Positions 22,819 through 34,387 are shown, counted from the stretch's first letter. The stretch is DNA of 64,000 bases from Candidatus Nomurabacteria bacterium (GCA_020632075.1 JACKGH010000001.1:458852-522851); one strand, 5' to 3'. A program made the numbers and translations. The notes: generated by a model not told the origin, from the sequence alone.

Positions 22819-23235
22819 TTACTTACAACTTAAACTTTCGGGTTCGTCGACTAACTCTACACCATTATTAGACTCGTCAACACAATAGTAATTCCCCTCA
22901 TTATACTGAAACACACTCGCTCTCCATTCGTCTGACGAATCAACACACGTAACATTTGAGTCATCACCCCCATAAGAATCCTGCATAAGCTTCAGGTCTT
23001 CACTCGCTGACTCTAGATAAATCGTGACTGATTCTGAATCACAGCCACCCTTGTAACTATACTGATTTTGATTCCGGTACAATTCCATTTGTGATCGAAT
23101 ATTAGTCAGCTTTTGCTGCAACGCTTCTCCGATACAGTAACTTTCAAAACCATCACAACTATCTTTATCTAAAAGCAACCCATATACAACTACCGCAGAA
23201 AGACACAGACCAATAATTACAATAGTTTTTTTCAT
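22819..23235 (-). CDS. hypothetical secreted Cys-containing protein
   Basis: 138-aa ORF; signal peptide MKKTIVIIGLCLSAVVVYG; 6 Cys. Confidence 0.5.
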   Translation of the reverse strand: MKKTIVIIGLCLSAVVVYGLLLDKDSCDGFESYCIGEALQQKLTNIRSQMELYRNQNQYSYKGGCDSESVTIYLESASEDLKLMQDSYGGDDSNVTCVDSSDEWRASVFQYNEGNYYCVDESNNGVELVDEPESLSCK

Positions 23236-23242
23236 ACACTAA

Positions 23243-23674
23243 CTACAGTTTATCTTTATATTTCTTCAAAAAATACGGAAATTGTGAGTGTTGTGGTTCT
23301 GGAAAATCTTCTAATGCAAACCATTTGAGCTCAAGGCATTTCTCAGGTTCATTTATCTGCACTTCAGTCGGATCAATCTCTACTTTAAAATCATGCTGGA
23401 TCCAGTGTGTAATCTTCCCGTCAATCTCACGAAACACTTCACGGATACCCAGTTTTTCGATCGCGACTACAGACGCATTGCATTCTTCCTTCACCTCTCG
23501 ATGGATTGCCTCTTCGATCGTCTCGCCAAACTTAATTCCACCGCTCCCAACCGGACTCCAGGTAAAGTGCTCATCACGACACTTGTCGCTCCGATGCTCA
23601 AGAAGATACTTTCCTCGCCCATCGTGACACATGGTCGTCACCGCTACACCAATGAAATCAAACCCTTTCTTCAT
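23243..23674 (-). CDS. NUDIX hydrolase
   Basis: Start taken at MKKGFDF just downstream of a 22-bp hairpin; Nudix box GGIKFGETIEEAIHREVKEECN. Confidence 0.75.
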   Translation of the reverse strand: MKKGFDFIGVAVTTMCHDGRGKYLLEHRSDKCRDEHFTWSPVGSGGIKFGETIEEAIHREVKEECNASVVAIEKLGIREVFREIDGKITHWIQHDFKVEIDPTEVQINEPEKCLELKWFALEDFPEPQHSQFPYFLKKYKDKL

Positions 23675-23876
23675 TGCTCGTAGCGTAGCACAGAAACAGC
23701 GCGGCGCCCACAAAGTGGGCGCCGCGCTGTTTCTGTTGGAGTGATCTGTTAGATCTTTAGGTTTCCTAGAGATAAAAATTGGATGAAGAGCGAGGAGTCT
23801 AAGAATTTTACGAGAGAGGCGTACCTTGATGTACGTGACCGAGTAAAATTCTGTAACAACGACGCTATTCGCCAAT

Positions 23877-28590: not shown

Positions 28591-30831
28591 TTACTTTGCC
28601 ACAGCAGCCGCTTCATCAAACTTCACTGAGAGTACTTTCGAGACACCGTCGGCACCCATGGTAATACCATAGAGAATACCAGCACGACTCATAGTCTCTC
28701 GATTATGTGTGATAAGCACGAGCTGCGACTTCTTTGCAAGGGCCTCGATCATGTCTCCGTATCGGCGACTATTAGCCTCATCAAGCGCTGCGTCGGTCTC
28801 GTCGAGAATAATGAACGGTGGTGGATTGACCTGACTCATTGCAAAGATAAGTGCGATGGAAGTAAGCGCTCGCTCACCGCCTGAAAGCATCTCAAGACCC
28901 TTGACCCGTTTGTTTGGTAGCGAGACATGCAACTCGACTCCGTCCTCGATCTGTGAATCTTCCTCGCCCTCTTCTTCATCACCACGCTTTTTGAGCTCAA
29001 CCCGCTTAAGACTAGCCGCTCCACCACCAAACATAAGGGTGAAAAATGTATGAAATTCTTTCGTGATCTTCTCTAGACCAATGGTAAATTGCTCTTGTAG
29101 CTTCCCTTGCATATCGACGATCAGCTCTTTGAGATTCTGTACCGACTCTTCCAAGTCTGAGAGCTCACGAGCCAAAAATTCATCACGTTCTTTGACAGTG
29201 TTGTATTCCTTAAGCAGGTCCTCGGTTGCACCAACACCAAGCTCCTCAAGTCGGATCTTGAGCTTTTCAAGATCGTGCTGTCGCTTGCGCTGCACACCAC
29301 GATCTTCACTGATGATCATTTGTTCAGTAAGAGTAGAACCAGATTCATTGATGATCTCTTGCTGGTAGTAGTCTGAGGCACCACGACCAAGGAGCGTGAC
29401 CGCTTCTTGTAGTTGTACTTTAAAATCTGCGCGGTCACGCTCCAATACTGCCAACTCCCGATCGATCGCCGCCAATTTCCCTTCACTGTCTCGCTGCTCA
29501 TTCATGAGTTCAAACATCTCTCGTTCTGCTTCGCGATTCTTTTCCGTATCGGCTAGCTGTGCTGACTGCAATCCCTTCAGCTTCGTTGCCGCCTCTTCTT
29601 CAACACCAACCGCTTTGGCAACCATCTTCTCTGCAGCGTGCAACATCTTTGAGAGCGCTTCCAGTTCTTCTTGATCAGCCGCACTTGTGTCGATCACCTC
29701 ACCTTGTTCAGTCTTTAGAAAACCGCGCAACTTCTCTAACAAGTCTTTTAGAGCGCGCTTTACTTCCTTTACATCATCTACATCGAGCGCCTTTTCAGCG
29801 TGCTTCTCGAGCGATTCAACCAACTCTTCAAGCTGAGCTCGTGAGACGACAGTACTCACCGCTGTTTTCTTAGGTGGCGTTGTTAGGCGACGCTCAATGA
29901 ATGAGACCTGCCCTTCAAGCTTGCTGTATTCTCGTTCAGCCTCCTGACGAGCTTGTGCAGCCTTGCGCAACTCCGCCTCAGCTTCAGTTAACTCAGCTGG
30001 TACTTCTGCGGTTTCGGTTTTAGCCAAGAGTGCTTTTACCTCCACCAACTTTTCCTTCACTTCTTCCAGCTGTTTAGCTGGATTCGATCGTTCTTTGGTA
30101 AGGCGATCAAAGTGATGTGCGACATACACATCTTCGCGTTTCAGGTACTCAGCATACTTCGTTCGCAGCTCTTTTTGCACCTCAAGCGAACGTTCAGCTT
30201 TTTCTACCTGCTTCTTTAAATATTTTAAATGTGGCGCAGCCTCACGACGGAGGGACTCAACCTGCGCGATGTTTTCATGGGTCTTTTCTAGTTTGCGCTC
30301 AGTTTCTTGTTTTTTGAGTTGGTACACCTTGAGACCAAGGGCATCTTCGATCATTTCACGACGCTCTTTCGGACCAGCAGCAAGCACTCGATCAGCTTCC
30401 CCCTGGGAAATGATGTGATGTCCGGTCGAACCTATATTCGCGCCAGCTAAAAGCTCATGGATATCTTTGAGTCGAACCGAAGAGTCGTTGAGCTTGTATT
30501 CGTTTTGACCATCACGATGGACGATACGCTCGATTTTGACTTCGTCAAAATCGAGCGCAAGCGACCGACTCTTATTATCGAACACTACCTGCACACTCGC
30601 TCGATTACCACGCGAGACCTTCTCTGAACCACCCCAGATGAGGTCCTCACCACGCTTGCCACGCATTGACTTCACCGACTGCTCTCCGAGTACAAAACGA
30701 AACGACTCAGCAGTATTACTTTTCCCTGAACCGTTCGGACCAACGATCGCGGTGATCGGCGCAGAAAATTCGAGCTCGCTTTTTTTAGCGAATGACTTGA
30801 AGCCATTGATGGTGAGCTCTTTCAAATACAT
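28591..30831 (-). CDS. smc: SMC-family chromosome-partition ATPase, unusually short (746 aa, no evident hinge domain)
   Basis: N-terminal Walker A IVGPNGSGKSN with the canonical SMC N-terminus; C-terminal signature LSGGERALTSIALIFAM and Walker B FIILDETDAALD; central region is coiled-coil-like, with no globular Gly-rich hinge. Confidence 0.8.
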   Translation of the reverse strand: MYLKELTINGFKSFAKKSELEFSAPITAIVGPNGSGKSNTAESFRFVLGEQSVKSMRGKRGEDLIWGGSEKVSRGNRASVQVVFDNKSRSLALDFDEVKIERIVHRDGQNEYKLNDSSVRLKDIHELLAGANIGSTGHHIISQGEADRVLAAGPKERREMIEDALGLKVYQLKKQETERKLEKTHENIAQVESLRREAAPHLKYLKKQVEKAERSLEVQKELRTKYAEYLKREDVYVAHHFDRLTKERSNPAKQLEEVKEKLVEVKALLAKTETAEVPAELTEAEAELRKAAQARQEAEREYSKLEGQVSFIERRLTTPPKKTAVSTVVSRAQLEELVESLEKHAEKALDVDDVKEVKRALKDLLEKLRGFLKTEQGEVIDTSAADQEELEALSKMLHAAEKMVAKAVGVEEEAATKLKGLQSAQLADTEKNREAEREMFELMNEQRDSEGKLAAIDRELAVLERDRADFKVQLQEAVTLLGRGASDYYQQEIINESGSTLTEQMIISEDRGVQRKRQHDLEKLKIRLEELGVGATEDLLKEYNTVKERDEFLARELSDLEESVQNLKELIVDMQGKLQEQFTIGLEKITKEFHTFFTLMFGGGAASLKRVELKKRGDEEEGEEDSQIEDGVELHVSLPNKRVKGLEMLSGGERALTSIALIFAMSQVNPPPFIILDETDAALDEANSRRYGDMIEALAKKSQLVLITHNRETMSRAGILYGITMGADGVSKVLSVKFDEAAAVAK

Positions 30832-30833
30832 AG

Positions 30834-31430
30834 CTATTCACACTGGCCACCAGCGCTATAAACTGCTACGGTTTCATAGAAATCTGTTGAAGCCTTATAT
30901 GCAGCGTCATGAGTATTACCATCACACTCACCACAGCTCGTCGGACAACGAGCAAACGTGTCGTCAGGCTGAATCCCATCTGCAGCAGTATCAAATCCTC
31001 CTAGACAATTTTCAGCCGTTAGCTTAAACCAGTTTTGACTAGCTGATCCAACATTGTATATGTACGTACACGCTGAGTTTGCTGAGTCGTCAGGACTCGG
31101 AAGACTTGAAATGAAATCGGGGATCAGATCATCAACGAATGGATTGATGGCACAATGCCCAGCTCCTCCGGTATCAGAGTCTGCTGTTGAGGTTGCTGCG
31201 GCGGTTGTTCCGCAGGCAGGAATATCTGGATAATGTCCATGTTGTGCTCGATACAATTCAATTGCTAACTGCAACTCTTTTAACTCCGAAAACACCTCTT
31301 TGTTACGTGCTTCAGTACGAGCATGTCCAAAATTGGCGTACAAGATAGCGGACAAGATACTGATGATCGCCACTACGACCATGATCTCAACTAAGGTGAA
31401 ACCTTTTCGTGCAAGATAGCTTTTTTTCAT
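30834..31430 (-). CDS. type IV pilin / pseudopilin (prepilin-type N-terminal methylation domain)
   Basis: 198-aa ORF; KGFTLVEIMVVVAIISIL class III signal; C-terminal Cys residues. Confidence 0.8.
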   Translation of the reverse strand: MKKSYLARKGFTLVEIMVVVAIISILSAILYANFGHARTEARNKEVFSELKELQLAIELYRAQHGHYPDIPACGTTAAATSTADSDTGGAGHCAINPFVDDLIPDFISSLPSPDDSANSACTYIYNVGSASQNWFKLTAENCLGGFDTAADGIQPDDTFARCPTSCGECDGNTHDAAYKASTDFYETVAVYSAGGQCE

Positions 31431-31479: not shown

Positions 31480-32157
31480 TTACGGCATTCGGCAGATCAC
31501 CTTTTCGAGCTCTTCTTCGTAGCGAACTGCATTCAATGGCCTAGGCTCATCAGGATAACCACCCCACAACCCGTATGAGTACCGAAACTCACTGTCAGTA
31601 TTATCGCATTTGATAACGCCCAGTCCACCAAATGGTGACACTGCGTTACAAACAGCATCAGGATTGTTATCACTCACATCACAGCTCATGAATGGATGAG
31701 GATCAGGGTAAAAAGCATTCGGTTTTTGGATACCTGGCGGCGTAAGTTCTGCTGTACGAGCAGCCATGATCTTGTACGCCGAGCGAGCTGCGTTAGTCAC
31801 GTAGATGTAGCCAGAATTATTCCCATTACGCTTCGGGTCGGTCGGCAATGCGCGAATGTACTCAGGAGCCAAGCCAACGATATACTGACCATCATCTGCA
31901 CTTGGACAATCATATATCGTGCCGATCTCACCAGACCACACCAGCGCTCCGTTGCAGCCTGGAGGGTACATTCCTTTATCTAGTTTGTACTGCTCGATCG
32001 CACTCTGCAGCGCTCTAAGATCAGCCTGTCGCTGCGCATTTCGAGACTGAACTGAGGCGTCATTGAAGTTGTAATACAACAGACTAGAAAGAATTGTGAT
32101 AACAGCCACCACAACAAGCATCTCTGGAAGAGTAAAACCTAGTGAAGAGCGATTCAT
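31480..32157 (-). CDS. type IV pilin / pseudopilin
   Basis: 225-aa ORF; GFTLPEMLVVVAVITIL prepilin motif; C-terminal Cys residues. Confidence 0.8.
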   Translation of the reverse strand: MNRSSLGFTLPEMLVVVAVITILSSLLYYNFNDASVQSRNAQRQADLRALQSAIEQYKLDKGMYPPGCNGALVWSGEIGTIYDCPSADDGQYIVGLAPEYIRALPTDPKRNGNNSGYIYVTNAARSAYKIMAARTAELTPPGIQKPNAFYPDPHPFMSCDVSDNNPDAVCNAVSPFGGLGVIKCDNTDSEFRYSYGLWGGYPDEPRPLNAVRYEEELEKVICRMP

Positions 32158-32187: not shown

Positions 32188-32904
32188 CTACTCAGTTTGC
32201 CAACCTTTTGCTTCGATTGCTTTCTCTGCTGCTTGTTGCTCAGCTTCTTGTTTTGAGCGTCCTTTGCCTTCAGCTACCTTCTCCTTACGCAAAAAGACTC
32301 CAACCGTAAACACCCGGTCATGATCTGGGCCTTCCTGACTAACTGTCTCGTAGGTTGGGGTCACCGAAACATGCTCCTGAGCCATCTCTTGGAAGCGGCT
32401 CTTAGCATCTTGCCACAGGCGCTTACGGACGATCTCATCAGTCTTCCCAAAGAGGCGATCAGCAATAAAGTTTTTCGCCGCATCGTAGCCCCTATCCATG
32501 TAAATAGCACCGATGCAGGCTTCAAACGCGTTGGCGAGAATGTACTGGCGGGCGCGTCCGACGTCTTTCGCCTCGCCCTTACTCATCAGCAAATAGTCGT
32601 TTACACCGAGCTGCTCGGACGCGCCCGCCAGTGAAACTGTATTCACCAAAGCTGCCCGCACTGCAGTAAGTTCTCCTTCAGGCTTCTCTGGATATTTATG
32701 AAAGAGGTAATCAGTCACCACGAGCTCCAACACCGCATCACCCAAAAACTCTAGACGTTCATTGTGGTCCCAGGTCGCGTCGCGGTGTTCATTCAAGTAT
32801 GAACGATGTGTAATAGCTGATAACAGTATCTGAATATCAGCAAAAGTAACTCCGAGCAGCTCTTGCAGCTTCTCTAAGTCGGTATCAAGTTTTGTAACTT
32901 CCAT
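32188..32904 (-). CDS. rnc: ribonuclease III
   Basis: 238-aa ORF; RNase III signature ERLEFLGDAVLELVV; C-terminal dsRBD. Confidence 0.92.
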   Translation of the reverse strand: MEVTKLDTDLEKLQELLGVTFADIQILLSAITHRSYLNEHRDATWDHNERLEFLGDAVLELVVTDYLFHKYPEKPEGELTAVRAALVNTVSLAGASEQLGVNDYLLMSKGEAKDVGRARQYILANAFEACIGAIYMDRGYDAAKNFIADRLFGKTDEIVRKRLWQDAKSRFQEMAQEHVSVTPTYETVSQEGPDHDRVFTVGVFLRKEKVAEGKGRSKQEAEQQAAEKAIEAKGWQTE

Positions 32905-33011: not shown

Positions 33012-33914
33012 CTATTTTGAGCCCCTGCCAACCAAAACCGTAACTGCCTTGGTAACGATCGGAAGAATGTCTTCGTAGAAGTTGAGCTCGAGAATATCAG
33101 CTACTTTGAACCATTTTGCGTCGTCAAGACCGCCCTTCTTGAGCAGTTCAATATCCTGATATGGTGCATTAGCTAGAAAGTAGTGTACCTGCTTGCGCAC
33201 TTTGCCTTTTTCTGGCTGTGAAGCGACGTATTCATTATTGCCAAGCTCTTGCTCAAGCGTGATTGGAAGACCAACTTCTTCAAGGAGTGCGCGAGTTGCC
33301 CCCTCCTCGACCGTTTCTTCTTCCTTCACCTTACTCTTAGACAAAGTCCAGTGACCAAAGATATCGTGTACAAGCGCAAGGTACAGCTGCCCTTCGTGTT
33401 CTGCGTAGACTACCGCACCAGAAAGACGCTCAATTGGCATTTGATCAAACGGCACATCTTTCTTGCGACGCTTACTCACCTCATCCTTTCCAGGTTCACC
33501 GATCTCCTTGTAGACCGCACCGAGTACACCGTTTACAAACCGACTACTATTATCGCCACCAAACTGCTTGGCGAGTTCGATCGCTTCGTTGATCGCCACC
33601 TTTGCTGGCACTTCTGCTCGATCAGCAAAAAGCAGCTCGTACAGCCCGAGTCGGAGAATATTTCGATCAACTGGAGAGATGCGGTCGATCGGCCAGTCTG
33701 GTGCAGCCTTTTCGATCACGAGGTCGAGCTCCGGCTGCTTCGCCATAACGCCGTCGAGTAGTTTTTCCATAAATGGCATATCGGTCTTGTTGGGCGCGAA
33801 TTCTGCGACGTTTCGCTCCAAGACTTCATGAACTGCTTTTTTCTCAAGCGCATTTAAATCCCACTCAAAGAGTGACTGAAGAACAATGCTGCGTGATAAA
33901 TGTCGATTTGCCAT
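33012..33914 (-). CDS. nusB: transcription antitermination factor NusB fused to a C-terminal Nudix-like domain
   Basis: 300-aa ORF; N-terminal ~140 aa NusB-like (RSIVLQSLFEWDL, ILRLGLYELLF); C-terminal ~150 aa has a Nudix-fold pattern GHWTLSKSKVKEEETVEEGATRALLEEVGL with a degenerate Nudix box. Confidence 0.8.
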   Translation of the reverse strand: MANRHLSRSIVLQSLFEWDLNALEKKAVHEVLERNVAEFAPNKTDMPFMEKLLDGVMAKQPELDLVIEKAAPDWPIDRISPVDRNILRLGLYELLFADRAEVPAKVAINEAIELAKQFGGDNSSRFVNGVLGAVYKEIGEPGKDEVSKRRKKDVPFDQMPIERLSGAVVYAEHEGQLYLALVHDIFGHWTLSKSKVKEEETVEEGATRALLEEVGLPITLEQELGNNEYVASQPEKGKVRKQVHYFLANAPYQDIELLKKGGLDDAKWFKVADILELNFYEDILPIVTKAVTVLVGRGSK

Positions 33915-34021
33915 ACTAATGTACTAAACGTTAACTGCTCTTAGTGTACCATTTTCGCCAGCACACAAGGAACAAAATCCACAAACCAAAGCCCTGCGTT
34001 TGCAGGGCTTTGCGTGAATTG

Positions 34022-34318
34022 TTACTTGTCTTTCACCTCAGACTCTACTGCTTCAGCGGCTGGTTCTGGAGTTGCTTCCGCTCCACCAAAGTCTGCCTGC
34101 TGTGCGTTGATCATGTCGCGCTTCGCCTGAAGACGCTCTTCGCGAGCCTTTTTCTTAGCCGCCAGATCAACGACCATGCGACCCTTGTAGTGACCGCACT
34201 CGAGACACATGTGGTGTGGTCGGTGCTGTGCGCCACAGTTAGCACAAGTAGCCAAAGTAGGCGCCTTGAGCGCATGATGTGAACGACGGTTCGCGGTGTG
34301 TGCCCGCGTATGACGCAT
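34022..34318 (-). CDS. rpmF: 50S ribosomal protein L32 with C-terminal extension
   Basis: [18 protein letters not shown]-terminus; CANC...CLEC zinc ribbon; ~45-aa charged tail. Confidence 0.85.
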
Positions 34319-34387
34319 TCGAATTACCATAGTGGCGAAACTATAGCAGAATCAACGGGAAAAGCAATACCTCATTGATGTAAATAC

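What the first reader, a model, noticed from the sequence alone, without database searches (positions are those of the whole stretch)
33012..33914. NusB fused to a C-terminal Nudix-like domain with a degenerate Nudix box
The N-terminal ~140 aa are NusB-like. The C-terminal ~150 aa follow the Nudix-fold pattern (GxWxL...V.E....A..RExxEExG) but read GHWTLSKSKVKEEETVEEGATRALLEEVGL: the PGG loop is replaced by SKS and the first catalytic Glu by Ala. This is either an inactive Nudix module recruited as a binding domain on an antitermination factor, or a divergent hydrolase. The fusion is uncommon.
Basis: partly seen in the sequence, partly recalled or inferred. Interest (0 to 1): 0.5.

Follow-up and report, generated by a model that had tools for sequence, protein, structure and literature searches.

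The report
NusB with tethered degenerate Nudix domain
This is the ordinary rRNA-antitermination factor NusB of a tiny "candidate phyla radiation" bacterium, carrying on a flexible tail an Ap4A-hydrolase-like Nudix domain that has lost a key catalytic residue but kept its nucleotide-binding pocket; the combination is common in that lineage and I found no published description of it.

Summary
Window 33012..33914 (minus strand) is one uninterrupted 300-aa ORF: NusB (residues 1-140; TIGR01951 132.9 bits), a disordered basic linker (141-165), and a Nudix fold (166-290; Pfam 9e-12). The Nudix box reads S-x5-E-x7-R-A-x2-EE-x-G-L: the first Gly is Ser, and the "RE" Glu is Ala, matching the inactivating RppH E53A and NUDT2 E58A mutations.

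The gene sits in the orthologous rpmF-nusB-rnc slot, so it is the locus-orthologous nusB. The fusion is not rare in its lineage: at least 240 90%-identity clusters, about 55 50%-identity clusters, and about 50 of the best 80 species-level loci.

The nearest solved folds are diadenosine-polyphosphate hydrolases, which carry PKG rather than PGG. Many family members keep a canonical box. The window's clade is fixed for S…RA, and the Glu changed at least 16 times on a rough tree. In degenerate lineages the positions aligned to Ap4A-hydrolase phosphate- and adenine-contact residues stay 76-96% conserved, with no relaxation of overall constraint.

Best reading: a nucleotide or 5'-polyphosphate binding (not efficiently hydrolysing) module tethered to the rRNA antitermination factor. 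The mechanism is inferred. No paper describing this fusion was found.

The parts
33012..33914 (-). Complete nusB-nudix fusion gene (300 codons plus stop at 33012-33014)
   Evidence: Single ORF. Both Pfam domains present. Identical product on 6 independent contigs.
33495..33914 (-). NusB domain, residues 1-140 (seven helices)
   Evidence: PF01029 E=7e-37. TIGR01951 132.9 bits, above the 88.35 cut-off. PDB NusB chains at about 1e-18. AF2 pLDDT about 83-97. Foldseek 1tzv and 3r2d TMt 0.85, rmsd about 2 A.
33420..33494 (-). Linker, residues 141-165: conserved IGEPGKD motif, then a basic KRRKK stretch, predicted disordered
   Evidence: pLDDT below 50 for residues 141-152. The same GEPGKD motif plus a K/E-rich tail ends many stand-alone NusB proteins of related Patescibacteria.
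33045..33419 (-). Nudix-fold domain, residues 166-290, ApnA-hydrolase-like
   Evidence: PF00293 E=9e-12. Foldseek: 3i7u Ap4A hydrolase TMt 0.89, 1vc8 Ndx1 0.87, 4mpo CT771 0.81, also 9cxx Rv2985 and 3gz8 NrtR.
33267..33335 (-). Degenerate Nudix box, residues 194-216: SKVKEEETVEEGATRALLEEVGL (Gly1->Ser194; Glu16->Ala209, codon at 33288-33290)
   Evidence: Alignments to Rv2985, Ndx1 and CT771 and to NUDT2. Signature S-E-R-A-E-E-G in 118 of 120 close homologues.
34022..34330 (-). rpmF (ribosomal protein L32), upstream neighbour in the conserved gene order
   Evidence: PF01783 E=1e-17. Synteny in L001-L080.
32188..32904 (-). rnc (RNase III), immediately downstream neighbour in the conserved gene order
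   Evidence: Ribonuclease_3 and dsrm domains. It follows nusB or nusB-nudix in nearly all 80 loci.

Best explanation
The gene is the locus-orthologous (presumably housekeeping) nusB of a Patescibacteria (Paceibacteria/'Kaiserbacteria'-type) genome. NusB is the factor that, with ribosomal protein S10, binds BoxA in nascent rRNA leaders and nucleates the rRNA antitermination complex. To its pre-existing disordered, basic C-terminal tail an ancestor appended a Nudix domain of the diadenosine-polyphosphate (Ap4A/ApnA) hydrolase type. That is the same structural group as NUDT2, and experiment shows NUDT2 and RppH also strip 5'-phosphates from RNA. In many lineages the module keeps a canonical catalytic box and is probably an active pyrophosphohydrolase. 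In the window's clade the box has lost Gly1 and the 'RE' glutamate, the residue whose Ala mutant is dead in RppH and NUDT2. The positions that align to the Ap4A-hydrolase P1-phosphate and adenine contacts (K193, Y229, K241, Y280, D282) are retained. The most likely working mode here is therefore a flexibly tethered module that binds, but does not efficiently hydrolyse, a nucleoside 5'-polyphosphate. The ligand would be either the 5'-ppp/Np4-capped end of the nascent rRNA leader held next to BoxA, or a free ApnA-type nucleotide. Either way it would couple 5'-end status or a nucleotide signal to NusB-dependent rRNA transcription and processing. Shown: architecture, orthology of the locus, fold class, box state, conservation pattern. 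Inferred: loss of catalysis, the ligand, and any effect on antitermination.
For: Architecture and fold. Orthologous slot: rnhB-rpmF-nusB(-nudix)-rnc-smc is conserved in 80 species-level loci, and stand-alone NusB occupies the same slot with no Nudix gene there. ApnA-hydrolase class: top Foldseek hits, the WTxxKG motif and the Tyr downstream of the box (PMC2425470, PMC4734340). A209 equals RppH E53 (motif residues 38-60, position 16) and NUDT2 E58, both inactive as Ala (PMC6061791, PMC8616924). PDB 1xsa carries the same R-A-xx-EE state. Purifying selection is maintained: among 120 close homologues the Nudix domain is 89% conserved against 95% for NusB, and S194/A209 are fixed. Across 100 divergent fusions the Nudix/NusB divergence ratio is 1.27 in canonical-box lineages and 1.33 in degenerate ones. 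In the 71 degenerate sequences the ligand-contact positions are kept (K193 68/71, Y229 64/71, K241 54/71 plus 11 Arg, Y280 68/71, D282 63/71, W268 68/71), whereas box residues fall to 42-55 of 71 and the RE Glu to 5 of 71. The Glu changed at least 16 times on an NJ tree. Precedents for non-catalytic Nudix modules that bind nucleotides in RNA or transcription factors: CFIm25 binds Ap4A (Kd 2.4 uM) without hydrolysis (PMC2425470), and NrtR's Nudix domain is a structural neighbour here.
Against: There is no biochemical data for any member. The window protein still has E200, R208, E212 and E213, fixed in its shallow clade, so metal binding and weak or altered catalysis remain possible. The conserved aromatic and Lys residues could be conserved partly for fold stability rather than ligand binding. 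AF2 gives no confident inter-domain geometry (pTM 0.64, disordered linker), so no contact with RNA, S10 or RNAP is shown. The RNA-5'-end versus free-nucleotide alternatives are not discriminated. No rRNA operon or BoxA lies in the window, so the NusB target could not be examined.
Confidence: 0.55

Rival explanations
1. Divergent but still active hydrolase: the module keeps three of four box glutamates plus Arg, and hydrolyses an ApnA, ppp-RNA or capped RNA using another residue as base or ligand.
For: E200, R208, E212 and E213 are each retained in 119-120 of 120 close homologues. Canonical-box sisters exist at 77% Nudix identity (L002), so the loss is recent. The ligand pocket is intact.
Against: Ala at this exact position abolishes activity in the two nearest characterised enzyme types (RppH E53A, PMC6061791; NUDT2 E58A, PMC8616924). 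Gly1 is also lost. Other lineages of the same family go on to lose E200, R208, E212 and E213 without losing the domain, which suggests catalysis is dispensable for whatever keeps the module.
Confidence: 0.25
2. Structural or protein-interaction subunit: the Nudix fold serves as a docking surface within the antitermination complex or towards RNase III. This would resemble SuhB, an enzyme-fold protein that (from my own knowledge of the rrnTAC literature) acts structurally in the E. coli rRNA antitermination complex.
For: Catalytic residues are repeatedly lost while the fold is kept. The partner-gene neighbourhood (rnc immediately downstream) is conserved. Non-catalytic Nudix domains in multidomain proteins are known (PMC5389931).
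Against: The best-conserved positions coincide with nucleotide-contact positions of Ap4A hydrolases rather than an obviously new surface. No interaction could be modelled with these tools.
Confidence: 0.12
3. Functionally unlinked fusion: a housecleaning Nudix gene was fused to nusB by accident, is merely co-expressed, and in this clade is decaying.
For: Nudix genes are promiscuous fusion partners. The box is degenerate here.
Against: The fusion persists from about 100% down to about 30% identity across many candidate phyla. There is no relaxation of constraint in degenerate lineages. The Nudix domain is 89% conserved in the window's clade. A Komeilibacteria-type fusion carries a Nudix module closer to free-standing Nudix proteins (33.8% mean, maximum 45.9%) than to the main fusion type (26.4%), which suggests the same partnership arose twice.
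Confidence: 0.07
4. Artefact: two adjacent genes joined by a sequencing or assembly error or a missed stop.
For: None found.
Against: The reading frame is continuous. The identical 300-aa product occurs on 6 contigs from different assemblies. At least 240 independent clusters have the same architecture.
Confidence: 0.01

Closest known systems
NusB (transcription antitermination factor; TIGR01951 / PF01029)
   Same: The N-terminal 140 aa score above the equivalog cut-off, fold like solved NusB (TMt 0.85) and occupy the orthologous rpmF-nusB-rnc slot.
   Different: Canonical NusB is about 130-150 aa with no enzymatic module. This one carries a 160-aa linker plus Nudix extension.
Nudix diadenosine-polyphosphate hydrolases (Aquifex Ap4A hydrolase 3i7u, T. 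thermophilus Ndx1, M. tuberculosis Rv2985/MutT1 Nudix domain, Chlamydia CT771, human NUDT2)
   Same: They are the best structural matches (TMt 0.81-0.89). They share the WTxxKG loop, the Tyr after the box, the K-x-V-x-Y strand and the C-terminal aromatic.
   Different: Box Gly1 is Ser and the RE Glu is Ala. The Tyr is 13 rather than about 17 residues after the box. The domain scores far below every NCBIfam Nudix equivalog cut-off. It is fused to NusB.
RppH (bacterial RNA 5'-pyrophosphohydrolase) and the RNA 5'-dephosphorylation activity of NUDT2
   Same: Same Nudix structural neighbourhood. It is the mechanistic model for a Nudix module acting on the 5' end of an RNA. A209 corresponds to the classic dead mutant E53A (PMC6061791, PMC8616924).
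   Different: It is not an RppH orthologue (PRK00714 models 12-13 bits against cut-offs of 118-139). No RNA activity has been shown.
Non-catalytic Nudix modules: NrtR-family regulators (ADP-ribose-binding Nudix plus wHTH; AraR) and CFIm25 (binds Ap4A and RNA, no hydrolysis)
   Same: A degenerate box with a preserved ligand pocket, in a factor that acts on transcription or RNA processing. NrtR (3gz8) and AraR (5bs6) appear among the hits. CFIm25 precedent: PMC2425470.
   Different: The partner domain is NusB, not a DNA-binding wHTH. The nearest folds are ApnA hydrolases rather than ADP-ribose pyrophosphatases. Many members of this family still have a canonical box.
RsmB/Sun (NusB-like N-terminal domain fused to a 16S rRNA methyltransferase)
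   Same: It is a precedent for a NusB-fold RNA-binding domain fused N-terminally to an enzyme that acts on rRNA. RsmB models hit the N-domain weakly.
   Different: The N-domain here is a true NusB equivalog in the nusB locus, not the RsmB paralogue, and the appended enzyme fold is Nudix.
Dcp2 (helical regulatory domain plus Nudix decapping domain)
   Same: Same order of an all-helical N-domain followed by a Nudix domain. Foldseek aligns about 260 columns.
   Different: Rmsd is about 10 A and identity 12-14%. The similarity is one of architecture only, with no evidence of homology for the N-domains.

Membership tests
NusB (TIGR01951 / PF01029) | Scores above the curated equivalog and Pfam thresholds | tested here: met
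   TIGR01951 132.9 bits against 88.35. PF01029 127.2 bits against 23.1.
NusB (TIGR01951 / PF01029) | All-helical NusB fold | tested here: met
   AF2 predicts seven helices with pLDDT about 83-97. Foldseek 1tzv and 3r2d TMt 0.85, rmsd 1.9-2.0 A.
NusB (TIGR01951 / PF01029) | Orthologous genomic position (the copy in the conserved nusB slot) | tested here: met
   The rpmF-nusB-rnc order is shared with stand-alone NusB genes of related Patescibacteria. Absence of a second nusB elsewhere in the genome could not be checked.
NusB (TIGR01951 / PF01029) | Binds S10 (NusE) and BoxA RNA; supports rRNA antitermination | not testable with these tools
   No rRNA operon in the window. No complex modelling available.
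Nudix hydrolase superfamily (PF00293) | Nudix alpha/beta/alpha fold | tested here: met
   PF00293 45.6 bits against 21.1. TMt up to 0.89 to solved Nudix enzymes.
Nudix hydrolase superfamily (PF00293) | Complete Nudix box GX5EX7REUXEEXGU | tested here: not met
   Box reads S-x5-E-x7-R-A-L-x-E-E-x-G-L, with Gly1->Ser194 and Glu16->Ala209.
Nudix hydrolase superfamily (PF00293) | Mg2+-dependent pyrophosphohydrolase activity | not testable with these tools
   The equivalent Ala mutants of RppH and NUDT2 are inactive (PMC6061791, PMC8616924). This is a prediction only for this protein.
Ap4A/ApnA hydrolase subfamily (NUDT2, Aquifex Ap4A hydrolase, Ndx1, Rv2985) | Closest structural and sequence neighbours are ApnA hydrolases | tested here: met
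   Foldseek ranks 1-4, 8 and 11. phmmer hits to 9cxx, 4ilq and 1vc8.
Ap4A/ApnA hydrolase subfamily (NUDT2, Aquifex Ap4A hydrolase, Ndx1, Rv2985) | Phosphate-binding Lys before the box, and a stacking Tyr/Phe about 17 residues after the box plus a C-terminal aromatic (PMC2425470, PMC4734340) | tested here: inconclusive
   K193, Y229, K241 and Y280 align to human K42, Y82, K89 and F128. However, the Tyr is 13, not 17, residues after the box, and the mapping rests on a sequence alignment, not a ligand complex.
Ap4A/ApnA hydrolase subfamily (NUDT2, Aquifex Ap4A hydrolase, Ndx1, Rv2985) | Catalytic Glu of the RE pair (human E58) | tested here: not met
   A209.
RppH (NCBIfam PRK00714 models) | Scores above the equivalog cut-off | tested here: not met
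   12.2-13.1 bits against cut-offs of 118-139.
Non-catalytic ligand-sensing Nudix domains (NrtR/CFIm25-like) | Degenerate box with a conserved ligand pocket, under purifying selection | tested here: met
Non-catalytic ligand-sensing Nudix domains (NrtR/CFIm25-like) | NrtR architecture: Nudix plus C-terminal winged-helix DNA-binding domain | tested here: not met
   The partner is an N-terminal NusB domain. No wHTH was detected.

The most novel reading that the evidence does not exclude
Many CPR bacteria have built a 5'-end or dinucleoside-polyphosphate 'reader/eraser' directly into the rRNA antitermination machinery. A Nudix module tethered to NusB decaps or dephosphorylates (canonical-box lineages) or merely clamps (degenerate lineages such as this one) the ppp- or Np4-capped 5' end of the nascent rRNA leader. 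Alternatively it senses Ap4A-type alarmones. Either way, rRNA transcription and RNase III processing would be tied to 5'-end chemistry or stress nucleotides. The partnership may have arisen at least twice (main Paceibacteria type and Komeilibacteria type).
Probability: 0.25. Interest if true: 0.75.

Novelty: new variant of a known kind. Interest (0 to 1): 0.45.

Why it matters
NusB is one of the most conserved bacterial transcription factors and is normally a bare 15-kDa RNA-binding protein. A lineage-wide, long-maintained fusion to an Ap4A-hydrolase/RppH-like module suggests that, in reduced-genome CPR bacteria, chemistry at the RNA 5' end (or ApnA signalling) is physically coupled to rRNA antitermination. 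The family also offers a natural series, from canonical catalytic box to many independently degenerate boxes with an intact binding pocket. That series is a ready-made system for asking how an enzyme domain becomes a binding domain. Public records name these proteins simply 'NusB', so the extra module is invisible to annotation-based surveys.

Tried and rejected
1. Frameshift or misassembly. Rejected: continuous ORF, identical product on 6 contigs, hundreds of same-length homologues.

2. Looking for split nusB | nudix gene pairs as Rosetta-stone evidence. None of the roughly 30 stand-alone-NusB loci has a Nudix gene between nusB and rnc. The apparent 'free' Nudix P0392 next to rnc turned out to be a truncated gene call of a fusion: the frame runs from the NusB C-terminal motif straight into the Nudix domain. 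Several short 'stand-alone' hits start inside the fusion and look like fragments.

3. AFDB fold search for fusions outside the clade. The library was unavailable.

4. Promoter and terminator consensus scan around the gene. Counts were no better than shuffles.

5. Literature. Three searches and a search inside the 2017 Nudix-clan review found no mention of a NusB-Nudix fusion.

6. A first residue mapping to NUDT2 with MAFFT --keeplength dropped human residues and mis-indexed. It was redone correctly.

7. Ancestral state of the RE Glu. Midpoint-rooted NJ with Fitch parsimony gives an ambiguous or non-Glu root. I do not rely on the root, only on the minimum number of changes. That the ancestor was canonical is inferred from the domain's descent from Nudix hydrolases and from canonical boxes in the most divergent members.

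8. Independent origin of the Komeilibacteria-type fusion. It is supported only by identity values and a rough NJ tree of a short domain, so I treat it as suggestive.

Full report
**1. What is in the sequence**

Window 33012..33914 holds a single 300-codon ORF on the minus strand, with an ATG start and no internal stop. Three parts can be distinguished:
- Pfam places NusB (PF01029) at residues 7-136 (E=7e-37) and NUDIX (PF00293) at residues 167-282 (E=9e-12, 45.6 bits against a gathering score of 21.1).
- The NCBIfam nusB equivalog TIGR01951 scores 132.9 bits against a cut-off of 88.35.
- Solved NusB chains match the N-terminal half at about 1e-18. Solved Nudix enzymes match the C-terminal half, the best being M. 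tuberculosis Rv2985/MutT1, Chlamydia CT771 and Thermus Ndx1.

The identical 300-aa product is called on six contigs from different metagenome assemblies. The 120 most similar 90%-identity clusters are 298-315 aa (nearly all 300) and all carry both Pfam domains. A frameshift or assembly artefact is excluded.

**2. The box**

I aligned it residue by residue to Rv2985 ([27 protein letters not shown]), Ndx1 and CT771. The Nudix box is S194-x5-E200-x7-R208-A209-L-x-E212-E213-x-G215-L216. Two core positions deviate: Gly1 is Ser, and the Glu of the 'RE' pair is Ala.

A209 is motif position 16. That is E53 in E. coli RppH (motif residues 38-60) and E58 in NUDT2. RppH E53A is the standard inactive mutant (PMC6061791), and NUDT2 E58A has no activity on ppp-RNA or pppGpA (PMC8616924). 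The NMR construct 1xsa of human Ap4A hydrolase carries the same R-A-xx-EE state.

**3. Structure**

AlphaFold2 on a 145-sequence alignment gives mean pLDDT 86.3. It predicts a seven-helix NusB domain, a disordered linker (residues 141-152, pLDDT below 50) and a confident Nudix alpha/beta/alpha domain that includes the box helix 202-214. The pTM of 0.64 fits two independently folded domains on a flexible tether.

The best Foldseek matches in the PDB are:
- Aquifex Ap4A hydrolase 3i7u (TMt 0.89)
- Rv2985, a 'Nudix diadenosine polyphosphatase' (9cxx)
- Ndx1 Ap6A hydrolase (TMt 0.87)
- the ADP-ribose-bound Nudix domain of NrtR (3gz8)
- CT771 (TMt 0.81)
- C. elegans and human Ap4A hydrolases

NusB structures match the N-domain at TMt 0.80-0.85. 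The module is therefore an ApnA-hydrolase-type Nudix fold. It reaches no NCBIfam Nudix equivalog cut-off: MutT1 scores 29 bits against 475, and the RppH models score 12-13 bits against 118-139.

**4. It is the nusB in the conserved slot**

In 80 species-level genome loci the gene order rnhB-rpmF-nusB-rnc-(…)-smc is conserved.
- In about 50 loci the nusB gene carries the Nudix extension. These are record titles naming Kaiser-, Nomura-, Zambryski-, Niyogi-, Ryan- and Komeilibacteria and 'Paceibacterota'.
- In about 30 loci a 140-186-aa stand-alone NusB sits in the same slot with no Nudix gene before rnc. These name Yanofsky-, Azam-, Moran-, Nealson- and Wildermuthbacteria, among others.

Many of those stand-alone proteins already end in the motif Y(R/K)E(I/M)GEP(G/M)KD followed by a 20-45-aa K/E-rich tail. 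The window protein has the same motif (IGEPGKDE…KRRKK) as its linker. So the Nudix domain was added to the end of a pre-existing disordered tail.

**5. How common is it**

The exhaustive search of 1.84 billion 50%-identity representatives found about 55 full-length fusion representatives, down to 31% identity. Both 90%-identity searches returned 120 of 120 listed hits with both domains, and the lists were truncated. The fusion is rare across bacteria but is a standard architecture in this block of Patescibacteria. Sources name these proteins only 'transcription antitermination factor NusB'.

**6. Box state across the family**

- Among the 120 clusters closest to the family profile, 76 have the fully canonical signature G-E-R-E-E-E-G.
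- Among the 120 close relatives of the window protein, 118 have S-E-R-A-E-E-G.
- Among 47 species-level fusion genes about half are canonical. These include a near sister (L002, 85% NusB and 77% Nudix identity, …SKGKIEENE…RELKEEMGL) and the most distant Komeilibacteria-type members.
- In a combined set of 100 divergent fusions, 29 are canonical and 71 are not. Position 209 is E 34, K 20, V 14, I 13, A 10, others 9.
- On a rough NJ tree built without the box columns, Fitch parsimony needs at least 16 changes between Glu and non-Glu.

**7. What stays conserved when the box decays**

The Ap4A-hydrolase literature names the ligand contacts. Human K42, Y82 and K89 contact the P1 phosphate, Y82 and F128 stack the adenine, and E130 contacts its amino group (PMC4734340). 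A Tyr/Phe downstream of the box is a hallmark of Nudix Ap4A hydrolases (PMC2425470). These align to window K193, Y229, K241, Y280 and D282.

| Position class in the 71 degenerate-box sequences | Retention |
|---|---|
| K193 | 68/71 |
| Y229 | 64/71 |
| K241 | 54/71, plus 11 Arg |
| Y280 | 68/71 |
| D282 | 63/71 |
| W268 | 68/71 |
| Box E200, R208, E212 | 42/71 each |
| Box E213 | 55/71 |
| RE Glu (position 209) | 5/71 |

The ratio of Nudix-domain to NusB-domain divergence is 1.27 among canonical sequences and 1.33 among degenerate ones. In the window's own clade the Nudix domain is 89% conserved, against 95% for NusB and 80% for the linker. So the domain remains under purifying selection after catalytic residues are lost, and the pocket is better kept than the metal-binding box.

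**8. Possible second origin**

The Nudix module of the Komeilibacteria-type fusion (L061) lacks the GEPGKD linker. Its nearest database relatives are free-standing 140-170-aa Nudix proteins (40-48% identity) that lie in unrelated gene neighbourhoods. Identity to the window's module is only about 27%. Mean identities are 33.8% for L061-type against free-standing, 26.4% for L061-type against the main type, and 25.8% for the main type against free-standing. In an NJ tree the L061-type modules group with some free-standing proteins. This suggests, but does not prove, that an ApnA-hydrolase-like Nudix was joined to nusB more than once. The closest 'free' hit next to rnc (P0392) is a truncated call of a fusion.

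**9. Mechanism (inference)**

From established knowledge, NusB with S10 binds BoxA in the rRNA leader and stays with the elongating polymerase, so the leader's 5' end is held close by. A Nudix module of the type that hydrolyses ApnA, and whose relatives RppH and NUDT2 convert ppp-RNA to p-RNA (PMC8616924), sits on a 25-residue basic tether. It would be positioned to act on, or hold, that 5' end. Alternatively it could sense a free ApnA-type nucleotide. In canonical-box lineages hydrolysis is plausible. In this clade the E→A and G→S changes predict binding without efficient turnover. Precedents are CFIm25, which binds Ap4A at 2.4 uM without hydrolysing it (PMC2425470), and the NrtR regulators. 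The conserved downstream neighbour is RNase III, which processes rRNA precursors, but adjacency predates the fusion and is only circumstantial.

Rivals are residual or alternative catalysis, a purely structural role in the antitermination complex, or an unlinked fusion. They are weighed in the rival section. None can be excluded without biochemistry.

**10. Novelty and score**

Both domains are textbook families, and the architecture is visible in precomputed Pfam annotations. Even so, three literature searches and the Nudix-clan review returned nothing on a NusB-Nudix fusion. I rate it a new variant of a known kind. It is of moderate interest because it links a core transcription factor to RNA-5'-end or ApnA chemistry in CPR bacteria and offers a natural enzyme-to-binder series. 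It is not categorically new, and the function is unproven.

Noticed in passing
window 23243..23875 (-), probable start at the internal Met (MKKGFDF…, about 143 aa): A second, free-standing Nudix gene with an almost canonical box (GGIKFGETIEEAIHREVKEECNA; only the final G is N). It lies between a KhpA-type KH gene and rpsP (S16) on one side and trmD on the other, i.e. inside the rpsP-khpA-(rimM)-trmD ribosome-biogenesis cluster. The 138-aa ORF at 22819..23235, where rimM would be expected, has no Pfam hit. The genome therefore keeps at least one probably active Nudix enzyme, again beside ribosome-related genes.
   Followed up: partly
window 33988..34011 (transcribed on the - strand), between rpmF and nusB-nudix: A perfect 10-bp GC-rich hairpin (AAAGCCCUGC-AAAC-GCAGGGCUUU) starts 10 nt after the rpmF stop and is followed by GGUUUGUGGAUUUUGUU. 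MFE of the 66-nt stretch is -26.8 kcal/mol, z = -3.7 against shuffles. It looks like a terminator or attenuator in front of nusB. The consensus scan missed it.
   Followed up: partly
loci L050-L064, L067-L070 (stand-alone NusB); proteins P0247, P0253, P0266: Many Patescibacteria NusB proteins without a Nudix domain still carry a conserved GEP(G/M)KD motif and a 20-45-aa K/E-rich low-complexity tail. A few 338-345-aa representatives have a long K/E-rich C-terminal extension instead of a Nudix domain. C-terminal elaboration of NusB seems to be a general trait of the group.
   Followed up: partly
window 34022..34330 (-); loci L081-L084: The rpmF ORF is 102 aa: an L32 zinc-ribbon region (Pfam residues 6-54) plus a roughly 50-aa K/E/A-rich acidic tail. 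In four public contigs the gene was called as only 51 aa, which corresponds to the tail half and omits the L32 domain. This is probably a start-codon miscall in those records.
   Followed up: no
window 30834..31430 (-) and 31480..32157 (-): Two type IV pilin-like genes (N-terminal methylation motif) are inserted between rnc and smc. Pilin matches between rnc and smc were detected only in the closest relatives (L001, L002), not in the other loci, where smc follows rnc with no detected pilin match.
   Followed up: no
window 28591..30831 (-): The SMC-family protein is only 746 aa, with the SMC_N model spanning residues 2-731. The matched segments in the related loci are of similar length, about 2.2-2.3 kb. 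From general knowledge this is much shorter than typical bacterial SMC (about 1,150-1,200 aa).
   Followed up: no
protein residues 156-160 (DQMPI), window about 33435-33449 (-): Several database 'proteins' begin exactly at the Met just before the Nudix domain (MPIE…GAVVY; P0191, P0250, P0256). Most look like fragments or truncated calls. The Pro is at least 90% conserved, but the Met is not conserved family-wide, so an internal start producing a free Nudix domain seems unlikely.
   Followed up: partly
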